A DNA stretch of 5,702 nt from Halalkalibacterium halodurans. Its GTDB lineage: Bacteria; Bacillota; Bacilli; Bacillales; Bacillaceae_D. Below the pieces are notes generated by a model. That model did not search any database, had not been told where the DNA came from, and was given only the letters and a program-made list of their open reading frames with translations. The stretch's first letter is position 1, and each line of letters begins with the position of its first letter. Positions 555-5,702 of this stretch are shown one piece after another. The stretch covers positions 1-5,702 of the forward strand of contig NZ_SNUY01000111.1 of assembly GCF_004376175.1 (NCBI RefSeq), written 5' to 3'. The position numbers and the translations under genes were made by a program.

Positions 555-1727
555 TTATTTCTCCCACAAATCATAATGCTGATCCATCCACCTTAGTAAC
601 CTAATATCTTGCTTTGGTCCTGCAATCACAGATAGTCCAATTGGGACACCTTTCACTTCAGCCACTGGTATCGTGACTTGCGGGAGTCCTGCCAACCCTG
701 CAATAGAAGCGAGCTGGATCGTTTCGGATCTTCGTTTTTCAATTTCTTCTCCAGACAGGTTAACAAGAGGAGCTTTCCCAGGTGCAGTGGGAATGATCAG
801 TAACCCATCATCACCGAGCAGCTTTTCTAAGCGGTTTTGAATACGCTCTTTTAACTGTTGTTCGGTCACACTCTCATCTTCTTTTAAAGTACTTGCCCAT
901 TCGAATCGCGCTGCAATGTCTGGACCAAAATGGGGCTTAACCGTTTCAATCCATTCACCATGAGATTTCCATACTTCAATTCCTTGTAACGTTCTAAATG
1001 CATTCATCCATGTGACTAGCCCTTCGTCTGCAATCTCGATTGATTCCCTTTGAGTAAAACCATTTTCAATCGTTGTAAGAACAGGAGAGAGCACTTGCTT
1101 ACTCTCTTCATCCGCTAATGCCCACGCATCCTTACCAATCATTACTCGTGTAAATGCTTGAGCCGATGATTTTTCTTGAAGTAAAACCTCACCAACTTTA
1201 AGCAATGTCTTCGTATCACGAGTCATCCAACCAACCGTATCAAAGCTAGGTGCTAACGGAATAACCCCTTCAATCGAAAGAAAATTATGTGTCGGTCGAA
1301 AGCCGTACAGCCCGCAATAAGCTGCAGGGATTCGCACGGAGCCTGCTGTATCTGTTCCGAGGGCAAAATCAACTAGTTTAGCTGCAACAGCGACAGCCGA
1401 ACCACTAGAAGAACCGCCAGGAATACGCTGATGATCTTTTGGATTAACAGGTGTCCCGTAATGAATATTTTCTCCATTTAAACTATACATGAGCTCATCG
1501 GTAATTGTTGTGCCGACTAATGTTGCACCATTTTCTAATAAACGCTGTACAACAGGCGCATGACTTTTTGCAGGTGAATGCGTACGCAACCAATCTGGAT
1601 TTCCAGCACTAGCCGTTATTCCTTTTACATCCAACACATCCTTAACCGCAAACCTAAGTCCTGACAGGCTTCCTTTTGCTAATGGTTCCATATTCAGCTC
1701 TTCAACAAAGGCATTATAATCCTTCAT
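555..1727 (-). CDS. Amidase-signature (Ser-cisSer-Lys) family amidase, AMI1/Toc64-like subgroup; substrate unknown
   Basis: The long ORF is 555-1754. It carries the catalytic Lys in FAVKDV, GGSSSGS (nt 1398-1418) and GTDTAGSVRIPA (nucleophile Ser). GGAGGG (1733-1738) lies 5 nt upstream of the ATG at 1727 (Met10 of the track ORF), which I favour over the ATG at 1754. Stop is TAA at 555-557. Confidence 0.9.
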   Translation of the reverse strand: MKDYNAFVEELNMEPLAKGSLSGLRFAVKDVLDVKGITASAGNPDWLRTHSPAKSHAPVVQRLLENGATLVGTTITDELMYSLNGENIHYGTPVNPKDHQRIPGGSSSGSAVAVAAKLVDFALGTDTAGSVRIPAAYCGLYGFRPTHNFLSIEGVIPLAPSFDTVGWMTRDTKTLLKVGEVLLQEKSSAQAFTRVMIGKDAWALADEESKQVLSPVLTTIENGFTQRESIEIADEGLVTWMNAFRTLQGIEVWKSHGEWIETVKPHFGPDIAARFEWASTLKEDESVTEQQLKERIQNRLEKLLGDDGLLIIPTAPGKAPLVNLSGEEIEKRRSETIQLASIAGLAGLPQVTIPVAEVKGVPIGLSVIAGPKQDIRLLRWMDQHYDLWEK

Positions 1728-1757
1728 GTCATCCCTCCATAACCATTCATACATTAA

Positions 1758-3017
1758 TTAGCCATCATTTGCTTTTGAGATTCTTTCTTTTTGTTGATAT
1801 ACATTTAACGCTGCTTGAACACCTTCACCGACATTGACTTTCACATCGTGTCTTGTTAGTACTGCTTCTAATGCCCCAAGAGTTAATAGGATATTTCTTT
1901 GTTGGCAGCTATAGCCCATCGTCCCGATTCTCCAAATCTTGCCGTGGAGCGGACCAAAGGAGCTAGCGATCTCAATACCGAAATCATCTAGTAACATTTT
2001 TCGAACAGAATCACCATTCACTCCATCTGGTATCGCCACGCAAGTAACTGTAGGAAGTTTATTTTCTGAATGACCAAATAATTCAAGACCCATCGCTTCA
2101 ATTCCTGCAACTAATGCTCGTTCATTTACACGATGACGTTCAAACCTCGCTTCCAATCCTTCTTCTAATATGAGACGCAACCCCTCATACAGTCCGTAAA
2201 GCATAGATGTCGCTTCTGTATGATGATTGAGCCGTGCTGGACTCCAGTAATCTTGTAATTGACTCAAATCAAAGTAATTACTACGAATACGTCTTTCAAA
2301 ATTGCTTGATAACAGCTGCTCTTTCGTTGCCAGACCTTTCTCAATTGACTTTCGTTGCAAAAGAATATCTTCTATTCTTTCATTATAAGTAAGAGGAGCC
2401 ATTCCAGCGGGCACAGATAGGCATTTTTGCGTTCCCGTTATTAAACCGTCAATCATCCATTCATCTGTGTTTACTTCAGTCCCGCCGACCGTTGCGACTG
2501 CATCAACAAGCAATAAAACGTCCATTTCTCGGCAAGCATAGCCAATTTCCTTTAATGGCTGTATTCGTCCCGTCGATGTATCACCATGAACGATCGCCAC
2601 CACTTTTGGTTTTACTCTCTTCATTTCATTGATCACATCATCAGGGTCAAATACATCTCCCCATTCACAGGTCATCACTTGAACATCGGCCCCACAACGC
2701 TCAGCAATTTCTGTTAGCAAGCCCCCGAATCGACCAAAGGAGGGAACAAGTACGATGTCTCCTTCTTCAATCACACTACAAAGCATCGCCTCAATTCCTG
2801 CTCGTGATGTGCCGTCGATTGGAAAAGCCCAATGATTAGTTGTTTGTAGCACTAGTCTAAGCAGCTTCATTGTTTCATTCATTAAAGTAGTAAAACTTGG
2901 ATCAAATTGACCTAGAATTGAATTTGACATCGCCTGTCGTACACGAGGATCGACCTCAACTGGTCCAGGTGTCATAATCGTACGGACTGGAACATGGAAT
3001 GGTGTTGAATGATGCAT
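1758..3017 (-). CDS. Class V pyridoxal-phosphate aminotransferase (alanine/serine-glyoxylate, PucG-like ureidoglycine-glyoxylate aminotransferase family)
   Basis: The long ORF is 1758-3032. AGXT-type motifs are present: TGTQKCL with the PLP-lysine codon at 2424-2426, plus HGDTSTG and LLLVDAV. GGGGGA (3025-3030) lies 7 nt before the ATG at 3017, which I favour over the TTG at 3032. The gene sits 26 nt downstream of the M20 hydrolase stop. Confidence 0.85.
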   Translation of the reverse strand: MHHSTPFHVPVRTIMTPGPVEVDPRVRQAMSNSILGQFDPSFTTLMNETMKLLRLVLQTTNHWAFPIDGTSRAGIEAMLCSVIEEGDIVLVPSFGRFGGLLTEIAERCGADVQVMTCEWGDVFDPDDVINEMKRVKPKVVAIVHGDTSTGRIQPLKEIGYACREMDVLLLVDAVATVGGTEVNTDEWMIDGLITGTQKCLSVPAGMAPLTYNERIEDILLQRKSIEKGLATKEQLLSSNFERRIRSNYFDLSQLQDYWSPARLNHHTEATSMLYGLYEGLRLILEEGLEARFERHRVNERALVAGIEAMGLELFGHSENKLPTVTCVAIPDGVNGDSVRKMLLDDFGIEIASSFGPLHGKIWRIGTMGYSCQQRNILLTLGALEAVLTRHDVKVNVGEGVQAALNVYQQKERISKANDG

Positions 3018-3043
3018 CTTGCAATCCCCCAATCTTGCTCGTA

Positions 3044-4288
3044 TTATTCTGCTAACCTCACTAATGTATTTAACAAAACTTGCGTACCAATCATACAGTC
3101 TTCATAATCTGACCATTCCTTTGGATTATGGCTAATTCCCTCTTTAGAGCGAACAAAGATCATACCCATTTTCGTCAGCTTCGCCATCATCAAGGAATCA
3201 TGACCAGCCCCGCATTGTAATCTCATCGTTGGCACATCAAGCTCTTTACACGATTCCTCAATCATATCAATTACCTCTACTTGGCAAGAAGTAGGATCGA
3301 CAGCTTTTTTGACTTCCATCTCAGCATGGACGTCCCTTTTCTGGCAAATTCGATTGATAGCTTCATTGACTTCATTCATCATTTTTGTTCGACTTTCTTT
3401 ATTAATATGTCTAAGATCAACGGAAAAAGCAGCAAGACCTGGGATAATATTGACTCCACCTGGCTCTATGTTTACTTTCCCAACTGTTCCGACTCCATCA
3501 TACGTCTTGGCAATCTTCTCAATGTCTAGCATGAGCTCCGCCATCGCAAGAGCAGCATCCTTTCTCATATACATAGGAGTGGCACCAGCATGATCGGCAT
3601 GTCCTTTTACAACAACATCTAACCATATCGGCCCCTGAATATCAGTCACAATTCCAACAGGCAGCTGATGTTCTTCAAGAACCTTCCCTTGCTCAATATG
3701 CAGCTCAACATAGGCTTTTAATTCTTCTCGTTCTCTCTTTGCTTGTTTGTATAAGCGAGGATCTAATTGTGCTTGACGAAAAGCTTCTGCGTAAGTCAGC
3801 CCATTTGCATCCGTTAATGAAAATGTCGCTTCATCTAGCTCTCCTGCCATTGCTTTACTACCAATATAACCTGTGCCAAAACGAATTCCTTCTTCATCTG
3901 TAAAGGAGACAACCTCGATTGAATGCTTCAGCTGAAAACCTGACTCTTTAATCGAACGCACGGCTTCAATTGCCCCAAGAACACCTAGAGCCCCGTCAAA
4001 AATCCCTCCTTGAAAAACCGTATCAATATGTGATCCTGTTAAGACAATTGGCGCTTGTTTCACTGTTCCCTCTAGCTTTCCGATAATATTACCAACTACA
4101 TCAATGCGAACCTTAAGCCCTGCCTCTTCCATTAAATTGATTACATATTGTCTCGCTTTCAAATCCTCTACACTAAGCGAAAGTCTTGTCACTCCTTCTT
4201 CTTTAGAAGATGGTGAAGATCCAATCTCACCTAATTCCAAAAGAGTATTCCATAATCGTTGTTTGTTGATCTGACATGTAATAACCAA
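3044..4288 (-). CDS. M20-family Zn/Mn amidohydrolase of the allantoate amidohydrolase / N-carbamoyl-L-amino-acid hydrolase group (PucF/AllC-like)
   Basis: 414-aa ORF with a TTG start at 4288, preceded by GGAGGGGAG (4297-4305, 8-nt spacer). Metal and dimerisation-domain motifs are GSHIDTV, FDGALGV, FTDEEG, GHADHAGATPM and CGAGHD. The adjacent PucG-type aminotransferase favours allantoate amidohydrolase, but I cannot assign the substrate from sequence alone. Confidence 0.85.
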   Translation of the reverse strand: MVITCQINKQRLWNTLLELGEIGSSPSSKEEGVTRLSLSVEDLKARQYVINLMEEAGLKVRIDVVGNIIGKLEGTVKQAPIVLTGSHIDTVFQGGIFDGALGVLGAIEAVRSIKESGFQLKHSIEVVSFTDEEGIRFGTGYIGSKAMAGELDEATFSLTDANGLTYAEAFRQAQLDPRLYKQAKREREELKAYVELHIEQGKVLEEHQLPVGIVTDIQGPIWLDVVVKGHADHAGATPMYMRKDAALAMAELMLDIEKIAKTYDGVGTVGKVNIEPGGVNIIPGLAAFSVDLRHINKESRTKMMNEVNEAINRICQKRDVHAEMEVKKAVDPTSCQVEVIDMIEESCKELDVPTMRLQCGAGHDSLMMAKLTKMGMIFVRSKEGISHNPKEWSDYEDCMIGTQVLLNTLVRLAE

Positions 4289-4382: not shown

Positions 4383-4829
4383 CTAATGAGAAGGCAAAAA
4401 TTCGGTTGTGAATATCTCATTGGCATCAAACGTTTCTTCTAGCAACCCTAATTCATGTAATTGATCGATCAGTGTTGTCCACCGTTCCTCTGACATATAA
4501 CCAAAACCGTGCTCCTCTGCATCACCACCATAAACAAATTCCATTTGTGCCTCCGTTTCAAAGGCAAGACTCTCTAAAGCGAGATTTGGGTTCGCCTCAT
4601 GAATCACTTCATTTATTTCATCAGGCGCATCCTTGTAATAGTTCCACCCTTCAACAAATGAAGTCACAAACTTTCTCACTGTCTCCGCGTTTTCTTCCAC
4701 GTAATCTTTAGTCGCAAATAAAACAACATTGTAAGGATCAAATCCTGATTCTGATACTAAAATCGTTTCCGTCTTCACTCCTCCCTCAATAAAGTTTAAT
4801 TTTCTCGCTAATACTCGTGTATTCTCCAA
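4383..4829 (-). pseudogene. 3' half of an ABC-transporter substrate-binding protein gene (NMT1/THI5-SsuA/TauA type, NitT/TauT family), 5' half missing
   Basis: The 148-aa ORF (…VSESGFDPYNVVLFATKDYVEENAETVRKFVTSFVEGWNYY…FTTEFLP) matches only the C-terminal lobe of ~330-aa binding proteins. There is no signal peptide or lipobox. Two in-frame stops (TGA 4833-4835, TAG 4836-4838) lie immediately upstream, and beyond them is IS-associated DNA. Confidence 0.7.
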
Positions 4830-4922
4830 ATTTCACTAACACCAAATAGTAATCTCACCAGTACTACTGGATAGAAGTAGAACGAATTAAAATTTCTTAC
4901 AGGGGATAATCCATCCTAACGT

Positions 4923-4941
4923 CCAAACTGGTATAGTTTGG
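4923..4941 (-). repeat. Perfect 7-bp hairpin with 5-nt loop
   Basis: ccaaact (4923-4929) pairs with agtttgg (4935-4941); the loop is ggtat. Confidence 0.7.
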
Positions 4942-4945
4942 TAAT

Positions 4946-4990
4946 TGAGTAGTATGACCGTGCCTATAAATCTCCACGCTACTCACGGTC
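4946..4990 (-). repeat. Two interleaved 7-bp inverted repeats (H-type pseudoknot topology)
   Basis: tgagtag (4946-4952) pairs with ctactca (4979-4985). gaccgtg (4956-4962) pairs with cacggtc (4984-4990). The order is B' A B A', with a 2-nt overlap. Confidence 0.7.
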
Positions 4991-5159
4991 GCTAACCCTC
5001 CCATGTCTCTCCGGATTGGTATCCATACCTTCCTTCGTCCTGCGTATCCATGAGGTGGAGGTCGGATAAGCTCCTTTGCTGGGTCATAAGCCCGTATGGT
5101 GAAAATAAACTCCGACTCTGCACTATTGGTGTTTGTTATTTGTAAGTATACAGATGATG

Positions 5160-5274
5160 CACGGCTTTACATGGAGTGGCGGGCATGGTAGGCTTCCTTA
5201 GCCATGGGCGAATCATTGGATGACTCGCCGCTTCGCCAAGGAGCCATGCCCGCAGAGGCTCCGTGTCAAGCCAC
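5160..5274 (-). repeat. 115-nt imperfect inverted repeat forming a rod-like hairpin 23 nt downstream of the transposase stop
   Basis: Basal helix 5259-5274/5161-5176 has 12 WC pairs, 2 G.U and 2 mismatches in minus sense. Helix 5244-5253/5179-5188 is 10 perfect bp. Helix 5235-5243/5193-5202 has 9 pairs (one G.U) and one bulge. The apical helix 5207-5216/5220-5229 is 10 bp with loop 5217-5219. Confidence 0.8.
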
Positions 5275-5297
5275 TTTGGGTGATCTGCTTTCTAAGG

Positions 5298-5702
5298 TTA
5301 CACTGCCTGTAATCCATCCATTTGAGGAATATCTTTTATTAATCTTGAACCATCAAATTCACACTGTTTTTGACCAATGACAAACAACACACGTAGTAAC
5401 TTACAACACAAGGCAATCAAAGATTGTTGCTTTTTCAAAGGGCGTTCAGGGCGTTTGGTGTAATAGTGATGCAGGGCTTTAAATGTTGAATTATGGGCGA
5501 CAAGGGGACGAATCGCTAAATATAAGGCTCGGCGTAATCGTTTCCTTCCTCGCTTTGTAATCCTTGTTTGCCCTTTAAATTTACCTGAACTGTGCTCACG
5601 TAATGATAGCCCTGCTAAGTTCACTAATTGTTGAGGATGAGAGTACTTTGAAATGTCCCCAACTTCCGCAAAGAATAATCCAACAGTCACCGCCCCTAAG
5701 CC
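5298..5702 (-). CDS. IS110-family (IS116/IS110/IS902, DEDD-type) transposase, C-terminal Tnp domain; 5' part lies outside the window
   Basis: The frame is open to the window edge (GLGAV-TVGLFFAEVGDISKY…), so the GTG at 5690 is not the start. The hallmark Transposase_20 pattern is AGLSLREHSSGKFKGQTRITKRGRKRLRRALYLA, with Ser-Ser-Gly codons at 5583-5591. Stop is TAA at 5298-5300. Confidence 0.9.
   Translation of the reverse strand, partial: GLGAVTVGLFFAEVGDISKYSHPQQLVNLAGLSLREHSSGKFKGQTRITKRGRKRLRRALYLAIRPLVAHNSTFKALHHYYTKRPERPLKKQQSLIALCCKLLRVLFVIGQKQCEFDGSRLIKDIPQMDGLQAV

What the first reader, a model, noticed from the sequence alone, without database searches (positions are those of the whole stretch)
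4833..5297. Long structured non-coding tail 3' of an IS110-family transposase: candidate IS1111-style bridge/seek RNA locus
Seen: the transposase ORF stops at 5298-5300. ORF-free foreign DNA then continues ~465 nt to the break in the binding-protein gene (4830-4838). This tail looks more GC-rich by eye than the other intergenic stretches. It is packed with helices: a 115-nt rod (5160-5274), interleaved 7-bp repeats (4946-4990), a 7-bp hairpin (4923-4941) and ccagt/actgg (4858-4870). Established: IS110-family recombinases have no terminal inverted repeats. They are guided by an element-encoded RNA whose internal loops pair with target and donor DNA (bridge RNA of IS621, seekRNA of IS1111/IS110). 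That RNA is encoded 5' of the gene in the IS110 subgroup and 3' of it in the IS1111 subgroup. Inference: this 3' tail encodes such an RNA. It is far longer than the roughly 180-nt IS621 RNA, so extra or different modules are possible. I could not identify target- or donor-binding loops with confidence.
Basis: partly seen in the sequence, partly recalled or inferred. Interest (0 to 1): 0.8.

Follow-up and report, generated by a model that had tools for sequence, protein, structure and literature searches.

The report
Bridge RNA tail of IS650-like element
The non-coding stretch after this transposase gene is the right end of an IS650-type insertion sequence and most likely encodes the guide ("bridge") RNA that steers the element into ribosome-binding sites; this was already predicted for IS650, so it is a well-supported but largely ordinary case.

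Summary
The transposase is 100% identical over the window part, and 93% over full length, to ISfinder IS650. Durrant et al. 2024 (Supp. Table 5) list IS650 and IS653 as "Detected Bridge RNA End = RE, group IS110". Comparison with 80 related loci shows the element ends at window 4781, not about 4833. The conserved RNA core (about 5136-4898) is closed by a long-range stem and has two arms, each with an internal loop. Covariation supports it: 17 pairs changed on both sides against 7.2 in shuffles. The 3' side of loop 1 (AAAGGAG) equals the left flank and covaries with it across lineages (permutation z about 10). Loop 2 carries GGGAG, which equals the right-end terminus, with one covarying position. 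It also carries AGGAAUG (AGGAAGG in the window copy), complementary to the left end. Targets are Shine-Dalgarno sites (AAAGG-AG-G). The "115-nt rod" is not part of the conserved RNA. It is a discrete 147-nt palindromic insertion that is absent from most relatives. It belongs to a widespread hairpin family, absent from Rfam, usually found just 3' of transposase genes. IS1111 membership fails: no subterminal repeats, 427-aa transposase.

The parts
5298..5702 (-). C-terminal 134 codons of the IS110-family DEDD transposase. The gene runs off the window; the stop codon is at 5298-5300.
   Evidence: PF02371, E 2.4e-20. The window part is 100% identical to ISfinder IS650 Tnp. The full-length copy in L001 is 93% identical to IS650. 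NF033542 'IS110 family RNA-guided transposase', 257 bits.
5146..5292 (-). It sits in the spacer between the tnp stop and the guide RNA and is lineage-specific.
   Evidence: Absent from the 89-90% identical copy L006, where 5293 joins 5145 directly. Most relatives have a 17-73 nt spacer here, mostly weakly structured. Folds at -69.8 kcal/mol, z -6.62. Homologous rods occur in other IS families and in metagenomes.
4960..5136 (-). Conserved guide-RNA core. It comprises a 5' leader ACAAACACCAAUA, closing stem P1 (5120-5123 with 4960-4963), arm 1 (target-binding loop) and arm 2 (donor-binding loop).
   Evidence: Alignment A1 of 46 lineages, RNAalifold, the count of structure pairs. 97.1% of cells are paired. 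17 pairs changed on both sides, against 7.2+-1.5 in shuffles (0/500) and 2-7 in slid controls. The single-sequence MFE reproduces the same architecture.
5061..5116 (-). Arm 1: stem A (5111-5116 with 5061-5066) enclosing an internal loop and the hairpin 5081-5093. This is the target-binding loop.
   Evidence: Stem A shows compensatory changes: CG 33 / UA 9, plus CCGGA/UCCGG and UCAGA/UCUGA variants.
5071..5080 (-). Left-target guide plus core (AGCAAAGGAG) on the 3' side of loop 1. It has the same sense as the top strand of the left flank plus core AG. The next bases, C(A/U)U in relatives (CUU at 5068-5070 in this copy), continue at least partly into the first bases of the left end.
   Evidence: Guide against left flank in 42 unique insertions: 220/336 matches against 154.9+-6.3 in permutations (p<2e-4). 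Main group alone: 194 against 152.9+-4.2. Lineage-specific examples: UCGUAG, GCGGAG, GCGAAG, AGAAAG, GGGCAG, GGGAAG.
5098..5104 (-). Candidate right-target guide (UUUCACC) on the 5' side of loop 1. It would pair with the top strand just 3' of the core (predicted GGTGAAA).
   Evidence: Register-0 matches to right flanks: 144 against 119.3+-6.9 (p=0.0002). The signal comes mainly from the divergent L074-L080 group (AACUAAA against flank TTTAGTT) and L047 (GGTTAAA, 7/7). For the main group alone p is about 0.1, so this assignment is weak for the window copy.
4973..5059 (-). Arm 2: P2a (5055-5059/4973-4977), P2b (5048-5053/4983-4988), CGC/GCG, AC/GU, an internal loop and the hairpin 5013-5024. This is the donor-binding loop.
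   Evidence: P2b: CG 35 / UA 10, AU 31 / GU 12 / GC 3, UG 27 / UA 19. The G-U pairs fit only the tnp strand.
4997..5002 (-). Left-donor guide candidate GGGAGG on the 3' side of loop 2. It equals the right-end terminus GGGAG (core AG included) plus the usual first flank base G.
   Evidence: L010, L033 and L048 have AUAGGAGG here, and their right end is ...TTGAAGGAG instead of ...TTGAGGGAG. L011 shares the loop variant but its RE is not in the contig. L004 is one exception, a degenerate copy.
5028..5034 (-). Right-donor guide candidate on the 5' side of loop 2. It reads AGGAAGG here and AGGAAUG in most relatives, which is the reverse complement of the left-end start CATTCCT.
   Evidence: Sequence complementarity only. 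Both partners are invariant, so there is no covariation test.
4923..4941 (-). Conserved hairpin CCAAAC-N7-GUUUGG 3' of P1, followed by the conserved GUUAGGAUGG (4911-4920).
   Evidence: Covariation CG 26 / UA 11 at 211-222 of A1. Whether it belongs to the mature RNA is unknown.
4836..4910 (-). Poorly conserved spacer of the right end. It includes ccagt/actgg at 4858-4870.
   Evidence: The alignment is variable and is replaced outright in a subset of lineages.
4781..4835 (-). Conserved right-end terminal block UGAAAUUUGGAGAAUACACGAG...AACUUUAUUGAGGG-AG. The last IS base (core G) is 4781.
   Evidence: Conserved in all relatives, and homology stops here.
4383..4780 (-). Right flank: the 3' part of an NMT1/THI5-like binding-protein gene interrupted by the insertion. 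The site lies inside the coding sequence and is GGAGG-like.
   Evidence: The PF09084 match starts at residue 16 of the mechanical ORF, exactly after the IS-derived codons.

Best explanation
Identity. Window 4781-5702 is the right part of an IS650-type insertion sequence of the IS110 family. The IS110-group assignment is the one Durrant Supp. Table 5 gives for IS650. The host is probably Alkalihalobacillus alcalophilus. The element has inserted into a binding-protein gene.

The RNA. The 517-nt tail is the element's right end. Its conserved part (about 5136-4898, tnp strand) encodes a bridge/seek-type guide RNA. A closing stem holds two arms, and each arm has an internal loop around a small hairpin.

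Loop 1 reads the target.
- Its 5' side (UUUCACC) is proposed to pair with the top strand to the right of the core.

Loop 2 reads the donor, that is, the joined ends of the excised circle.
- GGGAG matches the right-end terminus plus core.
- AGGAAUG pairs with the left-end start CATTCCT. The window copy reads AGGAAGG, with one mismatch.

The target. The programmed target AAAGG-AG-G(G) is the Firmicute Shine-Dalgarno sequence. Copies therefore sit between the ribosome-binding site and the start codon of genes, co-oriented with tnp. The right end (GAGGGAG+G) rebuilds an SD-like sequence in front of the gene.

Shown here: the element boundaries, the structure covariation, guide-flank covariation for the left target guide, and one covarying donor position.

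Inferred: that the RNA is made (probably from the tnp transcript, since no promoter was found), that the recombinase binds it, the right-target and right-donor guides, and AG as the crossover core.

The rod at 5146-5292 is a separately acquired palindromic insert and is not needed for this mechanism.
For: - Transposase identity.
- Literature: IS650 and IS653 are listed as 'Detected Bridge RNA End RE, IS110 Group IS110'. The IS1111 guide order and the 3' NCR come.
- Boundaries from 80 loci.
- Structure. 97.1% of cells are paired; 17 pairs and 77 cells changed on both sides; 0/500 shuffles reach this; slid controls give 2-7 pairs. Thirty-nine G-U cells in P2b fit only the tnp strand.
- Left target guide: (220 against 154.9+-6.3).
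- Right target guide: (p=0.0002 overall), plus L047 and the L074 group.
- Donor guide.
- SD targeting: 27/45 right junctions have a start codon 2-15 nt downstream, against 146/920 at control positions.
Against: - There is no expression or binding evidence.
- No sigma-70-like promoter or intrinsic terminator was found in 4750-5400.
- No Rfam family matches. I do not know whether Rfam 15 holds a model for this type of bridge RNA.
- The core RNA is not thermodynamically unusual (z -0.16).
- The right-target guide signal is weak within the main group (p about 0.1). In the window copy it fits the flank only with a 1-nt bulge (GAGTGAA against GGTGAAA).
- The donor guides are short. Only one position covaries, possibly through a single evolutionary event, and L004 is an exception.
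- The RTG/RDG candidates do not pair with both core bases, unlike IS621.
- The window's own left flank lies outside the window, so its target cannot be reconstructed.
Confidence: 0.82

Rival explanations
1. The conserved tail is conserved as DNA, for example as transposase-binding sites or right-end recombination sequences, or as a cis-acting 3' UTR. It does not provide an RNA guide.
For: The terminal 55 nt are conserved, as expected for a recombination end. No promoter or terminator was found. The core has an unremarkable folding energy.
Against: Compensatory base-pair changes occur over long range, and G-U pairs are tolerated on one strand only. A loop segment far from the terminus (about 290 nt inside) tracks the left flank of each lineage. 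A DNA-binding-site model does not predict this.
Confidence: 0.06
2. The tail encodes a regulatory small RNA that controls transposase expression, like Ssr9 downstream of tnp in ISPpu9, rather than a targeting guide.
For: A small RNA gene downstream of an IS110-family tnp with a regulatory role has been reported for ISPpu9 (abstracts). The RNA contains SD-like and anti-SD-like strings (AAAGGAG, CCUCCACCUC).
Against: The variable loop positions covary with the flanking insertion sites, not with the tnp 5' UTR. The architecture has two internal loops that match target and donor.
Confidence: 0.05
3. The 115-nt rod is a genuine extra module of the guide RNA in IS650-type copies. It might be a processing (RNase III) or stabilising domain that separates the mRNA from the guide RNA.
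For: The rod sits exactly between the stop codon and the RNA leader. Three lineages carry long hairpins at this same spot: the IS650 type, L043 and L068 (the latter two differ in sequence). L055 keeps the rod base but has a different, still paired, apex.
Against: Most relatives, including the 89-90% identical L006, lack it. The same rod family occurs next to IS3, IS256 and ISLre2 transposase genes, in either orientation, and inside a TIR-bounded MITE. G-U pairs are no commoner than A-C mismatches. This points to a DNA palindrome or a mobile insert.
Confidence: 0.12

Closest known systems
IS650 / IS653 (ISfinder, IS110 family; Bacillus halodurans; described by Takami et al. 2001, from my own knowledge)
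   Same: The transposase is 100% identical over the window part and 93% over 427 aa. Total length is about 1.92 kb in L002. Durrant et al. 2024, Supp. Table 5, list both with the bridge RNA detected in the RE and group IS110.
   Different: At 93% amino-acid identity this is a close relative rather than IS650 itself. I found no loop assignment, target description or structure for IS650 in the papers I read or among the full-text search hits.
IS621 bridge RNA (IS110 group; Durrant 2024, Hiraizumi 2024)
   Same: A two-loop guide RNA. The left guides have top-strand sense and include the core. The target loop lies 5' of the donor loop. The recombinase has DEDD and Tnp domains (PDB 8wt6, E 1e-18 over the C-terminal domain).
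   Different: - Here the RNA is 3' of tnp, in the RE.
- The order within each loop is reversed: the top-strand binder is on the 5' side.
- The two arms are tied together by a closing stem, P1.
- The core is AG, not CT.
- The RTG/RDG candidates do not pair with both core bases.
- The identity of the left guides runs past the core into the non-cognate partner. In IS621 the handshake guides flank the RTG/RDG.
- The transposase has 427 aa against 326-328.
IS1111-group seekRNA elements (ISEc11, ISPa11, ISKpn4; Siddiquee 2024)
   Same: The long NCR lies downstream of tnp, and the top-strand match is 5' of the bottom-strand match.
   Different: - There are no subterminal inverted repeats of 7 bp or more.
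- The transposase has 427 aa, not 330-350.
- Durrant Supp. Table 5 lists IS650 in the IS110 group.
- The conserved RNA is about twice the 82-96 nt peak seekRNA.
IS900/IS901/IS902/IS116 (mycobacterial and Streptomyces IS110-group elements)
   Same: As I recall, these insert between a ribosome-binding site and the start codon in one orientation (consensus CATGN4-6*CNCCTT). This precedent is from memory and was not verified here.
   Different: Durrant's table places their bridge RNA in the LE. The hosts are Actinobacteria, and the transposases are only distantly related.

Membership tests
IS110-family RNA-guided (bridge) recombinase element | DEDD RuvC-like N-terminal domain plus a PF02371 C-terminal domain | tested here: met
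   PF01548 (7.9e-34) and PF02371 (5.3e-22) on the full-length L002 protein. NF033542, 257 bits against a cut-off of 140. The window part carries PF02371.
IS110-family RNA-guided (bridge) recombinase element | No terminal inverted repeats, site-specific insertion, and the same short core on both sides of the element | tested here: met
   In about 45 junction pairs the left junction reads ...AAAGG-AG|CATTCC and the right junction ...GAGGG-AG|G. The L074 group shares only AG. No uninterrupted target site was available to fix the crossover position.
IS110-family RNA-guided (bridge) recombinase element | A non-coding end encodes a structured RNA with two internal loops | tested here: met
IS110-family RNA-guided (bridge) recombinase element | Loop guides complementary to, and covarying with, the target flanks | tested here: met
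   The left guide is strongly supported. The right guide is significant overall (p=0.0002) but weak within the main group (p about 0.1).
IS110-family RNA-guided (bridge) recombinase element | The second loop is complementary to the donor (RE-LE junction) | tested here: inconclusive
   GGGAG equals the RE terminus, with one covarying position in 3 lineages and 1 exception. AGGAAUG is complementary to the LE but is invariant.
IS110-family RNA-guided (bridge) recombinase element | The RNA is expressed, bound by the recombinase and required for transposition | not testable with these tools
   No transcript data are available. The promoter/terminator scan was empty.
IS1111 subgroup | Subterminal inverted repeats of 7-17 bp | tested here: not met
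   No consistent inverted repeat of 7 bp or more between the first 90 nt of the LE and the last 128 nt of the RE in 8 lineages.
IS1111 subgroup | Transposase of 330-350 aa that clusters with IS1111 | tested here: not met
   427 aa. IS650 is listed as IS110 group. No phylogeny was built here.
IS1111 subgroup | Long NCR and guide RNA downstream of tnp, with the top-strand match 5' of the bottom-strand match | tested here: met
   The 5' NCR is about 125 nt. The 3' NCR is about 400 nt, or 517 nt with the rod. Guide order.
IS650 (ISfinder entry) | Near-identical transposase and element | tested here: inconclusive
   100% over 130 aa in the window and 93% over 427 aa in L001.
Any Rfam 15 family | Covariance-model match | tested here: not met
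   No hit in the tail at E<=1. Only chance microRNA/snoRNA hits appear in the rod at E<=10.

The most novel reading that the evidence does not exclude
The 147-nt rod unit would be a member of an undescribed, widespread family of palindromic elements of about 110 nt. Its features are:
- conserved arms, TTGACAYGGAGCCTCTGYGGGCATG ... AGGCTAYCATGCCCRCCNCTCCRYRTAAA;
- a covarying outer stem;
- a variable apex.

The family has been acquired repeatedly just 3' of transposase genes in at least four unrelated IS families (IS110, IS3, IS256, ISLre2). It may be a mobile REPIN/MITE-like palindrome that ISs retain as a 3'-end module. In IS650 such a module could act as an mRNA stabiliser, a terminator or insulator, or the processing site that releases the bridge RNA.
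Probability: 0.35. Interest if true: 0.6.

Novelty: new member of a known kind. Interest (0 to 1): 0.3.

Why it matters
For the finding itself the value is mainly confirmation. A catalogued IS110-family element (IS650 type) carries its guide RNA in the right end, as a published table already states.

The analysis adds four things:
- exact boundaries of the element;
- a covariation-backed secondary structure;
- explicit target and donor guide assignments;
- the observation that this Bacillaceae-wide lineage is programmed for the Shine-Dalgarno sequence and rebuilds one at its right end.

The lineage mixes an IS110-group recombinase with IS1111-like RNA position and guide order. That is useful for understanding how the RNA moved between element ends, and for choosing diverse bridge recombinases.

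The rod family is a side result that may deserve its own study.

Tried and rejected
- Rfam over the whole window at E<=1, and over the rod at E<=10: only chance hits.
- Megablast of the tail against plasmids: no match.
- Search for subterminal inverted repeats: none that is consistent.
- Promoter/terminator scan of 4750-5400: nothing. A semi-conserved CTTCNGAATAC upstream of the RNA did not look like a promoter.
- Circle-junction promoter: I could not find a convincing -35/-10 across the RE-LE junction by eye.
- Right-target guide within the main group: the permutation test was not significant. My early by-eye matches at varying offsets were discarded.
- Alternative cores (GG, GGAG): rejected because the L074 group shares only AG at both junctions.
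- Longer left-donor guide pairing upstream of GGGAG: no match.
- Literature check of the IS900 RBS-targeting precedent in PMC4607514: not stated there, so it remains a recollection.
- Full-text search for the rod core sequence: 0 papers.
- Rfam on three plasmid rod loci: no family.

Full report
**What is in the window**

The minus strand carries the last 134 codons of an IS110-family transposase, with PF02371 and the stop at 5298-5300. Non-coding DNA follows. Then comes the 3' part of an NMT1/THI5-like binding-protein gene. Downstream of that are M20 peptidase, class-V aminotransferase and amidase genes.

A supplementary FASTA of Siddiquee et al. 2024 shows that the window's transposase part is identical to ISfinder IS650. 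L001 (Alkalihalobacillus alcalophilus ATCC 27647) is 100% identical to the window where they overlap. Its full-length protein is 93% identical to IS650 over 427 aa. The full protein scores 257 bits on NF033542, 'IS110 family RNA-guided transposase'.

**Boundaries**

A scan of one genome per species found 233 relatives, and 80 loci were kept. BLASTN and MAFFT comparison gave these results.
- Homology among copies in unrelated genomes ends at window 4781 (...AACTTTATTGAGGGAG|flank). It does not end at 4830-4838.
- The 'ORF' start at 4829 is IS sequence. The NMT1 match starts right after the IS-derived codons.
- The left end, outside the window, starts ...flank|AG CATTCCTGTAATG. The four bases before AG differ between copies in one genome, so they are flank.
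- The complete L002 copy is about 1.92 kb. The transposase has 427 aa, the 5' NCR about 125 nt, and the 3' NCR about 400 nt, or 517 nt with the rod.
- Many collapsed 1.8-kb contigs end exactly at these termini.

**The tail has three kinds of sequence**

   - It is missing from most relatives. In the 89-90% identical L006, 5293 joins 5145 directly. Most others have a 17-73 nt spacer, mostly weakly structured.
   - It folds at -69.8 kcal/mol, z -6.62. This accounts for the z of -4.39 for the whole tail.
2. *Window about 5136-4898* is 75-85% identical across genera.
3. *The remainder* is a variable stretch followed by a conserved 55-nt terminal block (4835-4781).

**Structure of the conserved part**

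The evidence comes from alignment A1 of 46 lineages, RNAalifold and a manually completed model tested with the count of structure pairs.
- 97.1% of cells are paired.
- 17 pairs and 77 cells changed on both sides. Shuffles give 7.2+-1.5 pairs (0/500 reach the observed value) and slid controls give 2-7.
- The model consists of:
  - P1 (5120-5123/4960-4963; GC 36, AU 8; UA 42, CG 4);
  - arm 1, which is stem A, an internal loop and the hairpin GGG/CCC;
  - arm 2, which is P2a, P2b, CGC/GCG, AC/GU, an internal loop and the hairpin GGAU/AUCC;
  - a further hairpin at 4923-4941.
- P2b has 39 G-U cells. These would be A-C mismatches on the other strand, so the RNA is on the tnp strand.
- The window sequence alone folds into the same architecture, but with an ordinary energy (z -0.16).

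**Guides**

The IS621 rules are these (Durrant 2024). Left guides pair with the bottom strand, so they read like the top strand of left flank plus core. Right guides pair with the top strand.

*Left target guide.* The 3' side of loop 1 reads AGCAAAGGAG-C(A/U)U, and the left junctions read ...AAAGGAG|CAT. The variable positions track each lineage's left flank:
- TCGTAG in L048
- GCGGAG in L066
- GCGAAG in L071
- AGAAAG in L043
- GGGCAG and GGGAAG in the L074-L080 group
- ATAGGAG, CGAGGAG and others elsewhere

In 42 unique insertions there are 220/336 matches, against 154.9+-6.3 under permutation. For the main group alone the figures are 194 against 152.9+-4.2.

*Right target guide.* The 5' side of loop 1 is complementary to the right flank in register 0 (144 against 119.3+-6.9, p=0.0002).
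- The signal comes mostly from the divergent group (AACUAAA against TTTAGTT) and from L047 (7/7).
- Within the main group p is about 0.1.
- The window's own flank fits only with a bulge.

*Donor guides in loop 2.*
- The 3' side has AUGGGAGG, which equals the right-end terminus GAGGGAG plus G.
- L010, L033 and L048 carry AUAGGAGG, and they are the lineages whose right end reads GAAGGAG. L011 shares the loop variant but its RE is not in the contig. The degenerate L004 is an exception.
- The 5' side has AGGAAUG (AGGAAGG in the window), the complement of the invariant left-end start CATTCCT.

*Core.* The only dinucleotide shared by both junctions in all groups is AG, so I take AG as the core.

*Differences from IS621.*
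- The RNA lies in the RE.
- The guide order within each loop is reversed, as Siddiquee et al. describe for IS1111 elements.
- The two arms are closed by P1.
- The right guides do not cover both core bases.
- The identity of the left guides continues into the non-cognate partner. This resembles, but does not equal, the handshake guides of IS621.

**Target biology**

The programmed site AAAGG-AG-G is the Firmicute Shine-Dalgarno sequence.
- 27 of 45 unique right junctions have a start codon 2-15 nt downstream with an open frame. At control positions the figure is 146/920.
- The right end plus flank (GAGGGAGG) recreates an SD-like sequence in front of the gene.
- The window copy is an insertion at an SD-like GGAGG inside a coding sequence.

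**What is known**

Durrant et al. 2024, Supp. [quoted passage not shown] It lists IS650 as RE, IS110 and IS653 as RE, IS110. IS900 and IS116 are listed as LE.

Siddiquee et al. note that some IS110-type elements carry the long NCR downstream.

The existence of a right-end bridge RNA in this element type is therefore already on record as a computational detection. I found no published structure, guides or target for it. IS1111 membership fails on subterminal repeats, on transposase size, and on the IS110-group listing in Durrant's table.

**The rod**

Copies with 72-78% identity occur on plasmids:
- inside a TIR-bounded insert of about 235 nt that splits an IS256-family transposase gene (L081);
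- 23 nt after an IS3 transposase stop (L082);
- next to an IS4/IS5-like (DDE) transposase fragment, judged by eye from the translation (L083).

A metagenome scan with the 5' arm returned at least 120 loci. The family has:
- conserved arms;
- a variable apex;
- a covarying outer stem (GC 30 / AU 6 / CG 5, GC 31 / AU 12 / CG 3, CG 37 / UA 7 / AU 3).

G-U pairs are no commoner than A-C mismatches. The rod usually lies 0-60 nt after the stop of a transposase gene, in either orientation. The genes are IS3, IS256, ISLre2/UPF0236 and IS110, with some non-transposase genes as well. Neither Rfam nor the full-text search knows the sequence.

I read it as a mobile or repeatedly captured palindrome. It is not a conserved part of the guide RNA. 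A role in processing or stabilising the transcript is not excluded.

**Verdict**

The element is a close relative of a catalogued IS whose right-end bridge RNA was already predicted. Interest is modest.

Noticed in passing
window 5146-5292; L081 2938-3175; L082 3001-3111; L083 3001-3110; L084-L203: The rod belongs to a widespread family of palindromic hairpins of about 110 nt. It has conserved arms, a covarying outer stem and a variable apex. It typically lies 0-60 nt 3' of transposase genes of several IS families, in either orientation. In L081 it is the centre of a TIR-bounded (GTAACCG/CGGTTAC) insert that splits an IS256-family transposase gene. It is not in Rfam, and no paper holds the core sequence.
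   Followed up: partly
L043 about 4400-4575; L068 about 1380-1570: Two other IS650 relatives carry long GC-rich hairpins of different sequence (apex GTCAAGG-GAAAG...CTTGAC) at the same spacer between the tnp stop and the guide RNA. This suggests an insertion hotspot or selection for a hairpin at that spot.
   Followed up: no
L014 4802-4830; L035 right junction: In two unrelated genomes the right flank repeats the last 13 nt of the right end (TATATAGAGGGAG TATATAGAGGGAGG). This could be a footprint of a second insertion into the element's own SD-like right junction, or of an excision/recombination event.
   Followed up: no
L002 2960-3000 and 4910-4930: The 99.8% identical copy in Halalkalibacter oceani has an atypical right junction: ...TTATTGAGG|TTGGCATC, lacking GAG. 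GGTTGG also occurs in its left flank. This points to a rearranged or off-register insertion.
   Followed up: no
L002 3020-3125 (left end, outside the window): The left end contains a conserved TTGAAC-N17-TAT(T/G)AT promoter-like pair upstream of the tnp SD. The start of the left end, CATTCCTGTAATG, is itself a small palindrome.
   Followed up: no
L074-L080: A divergent subgroup (65-67% Tnp identity) has different guides (CGGGCAG / AACUAAA). It inserts at a different, conserved site (...TTGAAGTAAA-GGGC-AG-TTTAGTT...) in several species. This is a natural example of reprogramming, and the identity of that target is unknown.
   Followed up: partly
window 555-4288 (minus strand): Downstream of the disrupted NMT1-like binding-protein gene lie M20 peptidase (3044-4288), class-V aminotransferase (1758-3032) and amidase (555-1754) genes on the same strand. 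The insertion may therefore be polar on, or drive, this cluster.
   Followed up: no
window 5055-5065 and 4997-5002: The RNA itself contains anti-SD-like (CCUCCACCUC) and SD-like (GGGAGG, AAAGGAG) strings. I did not examine whether it interacts with ribosomes or 16S rRNA.
   Followed up: no
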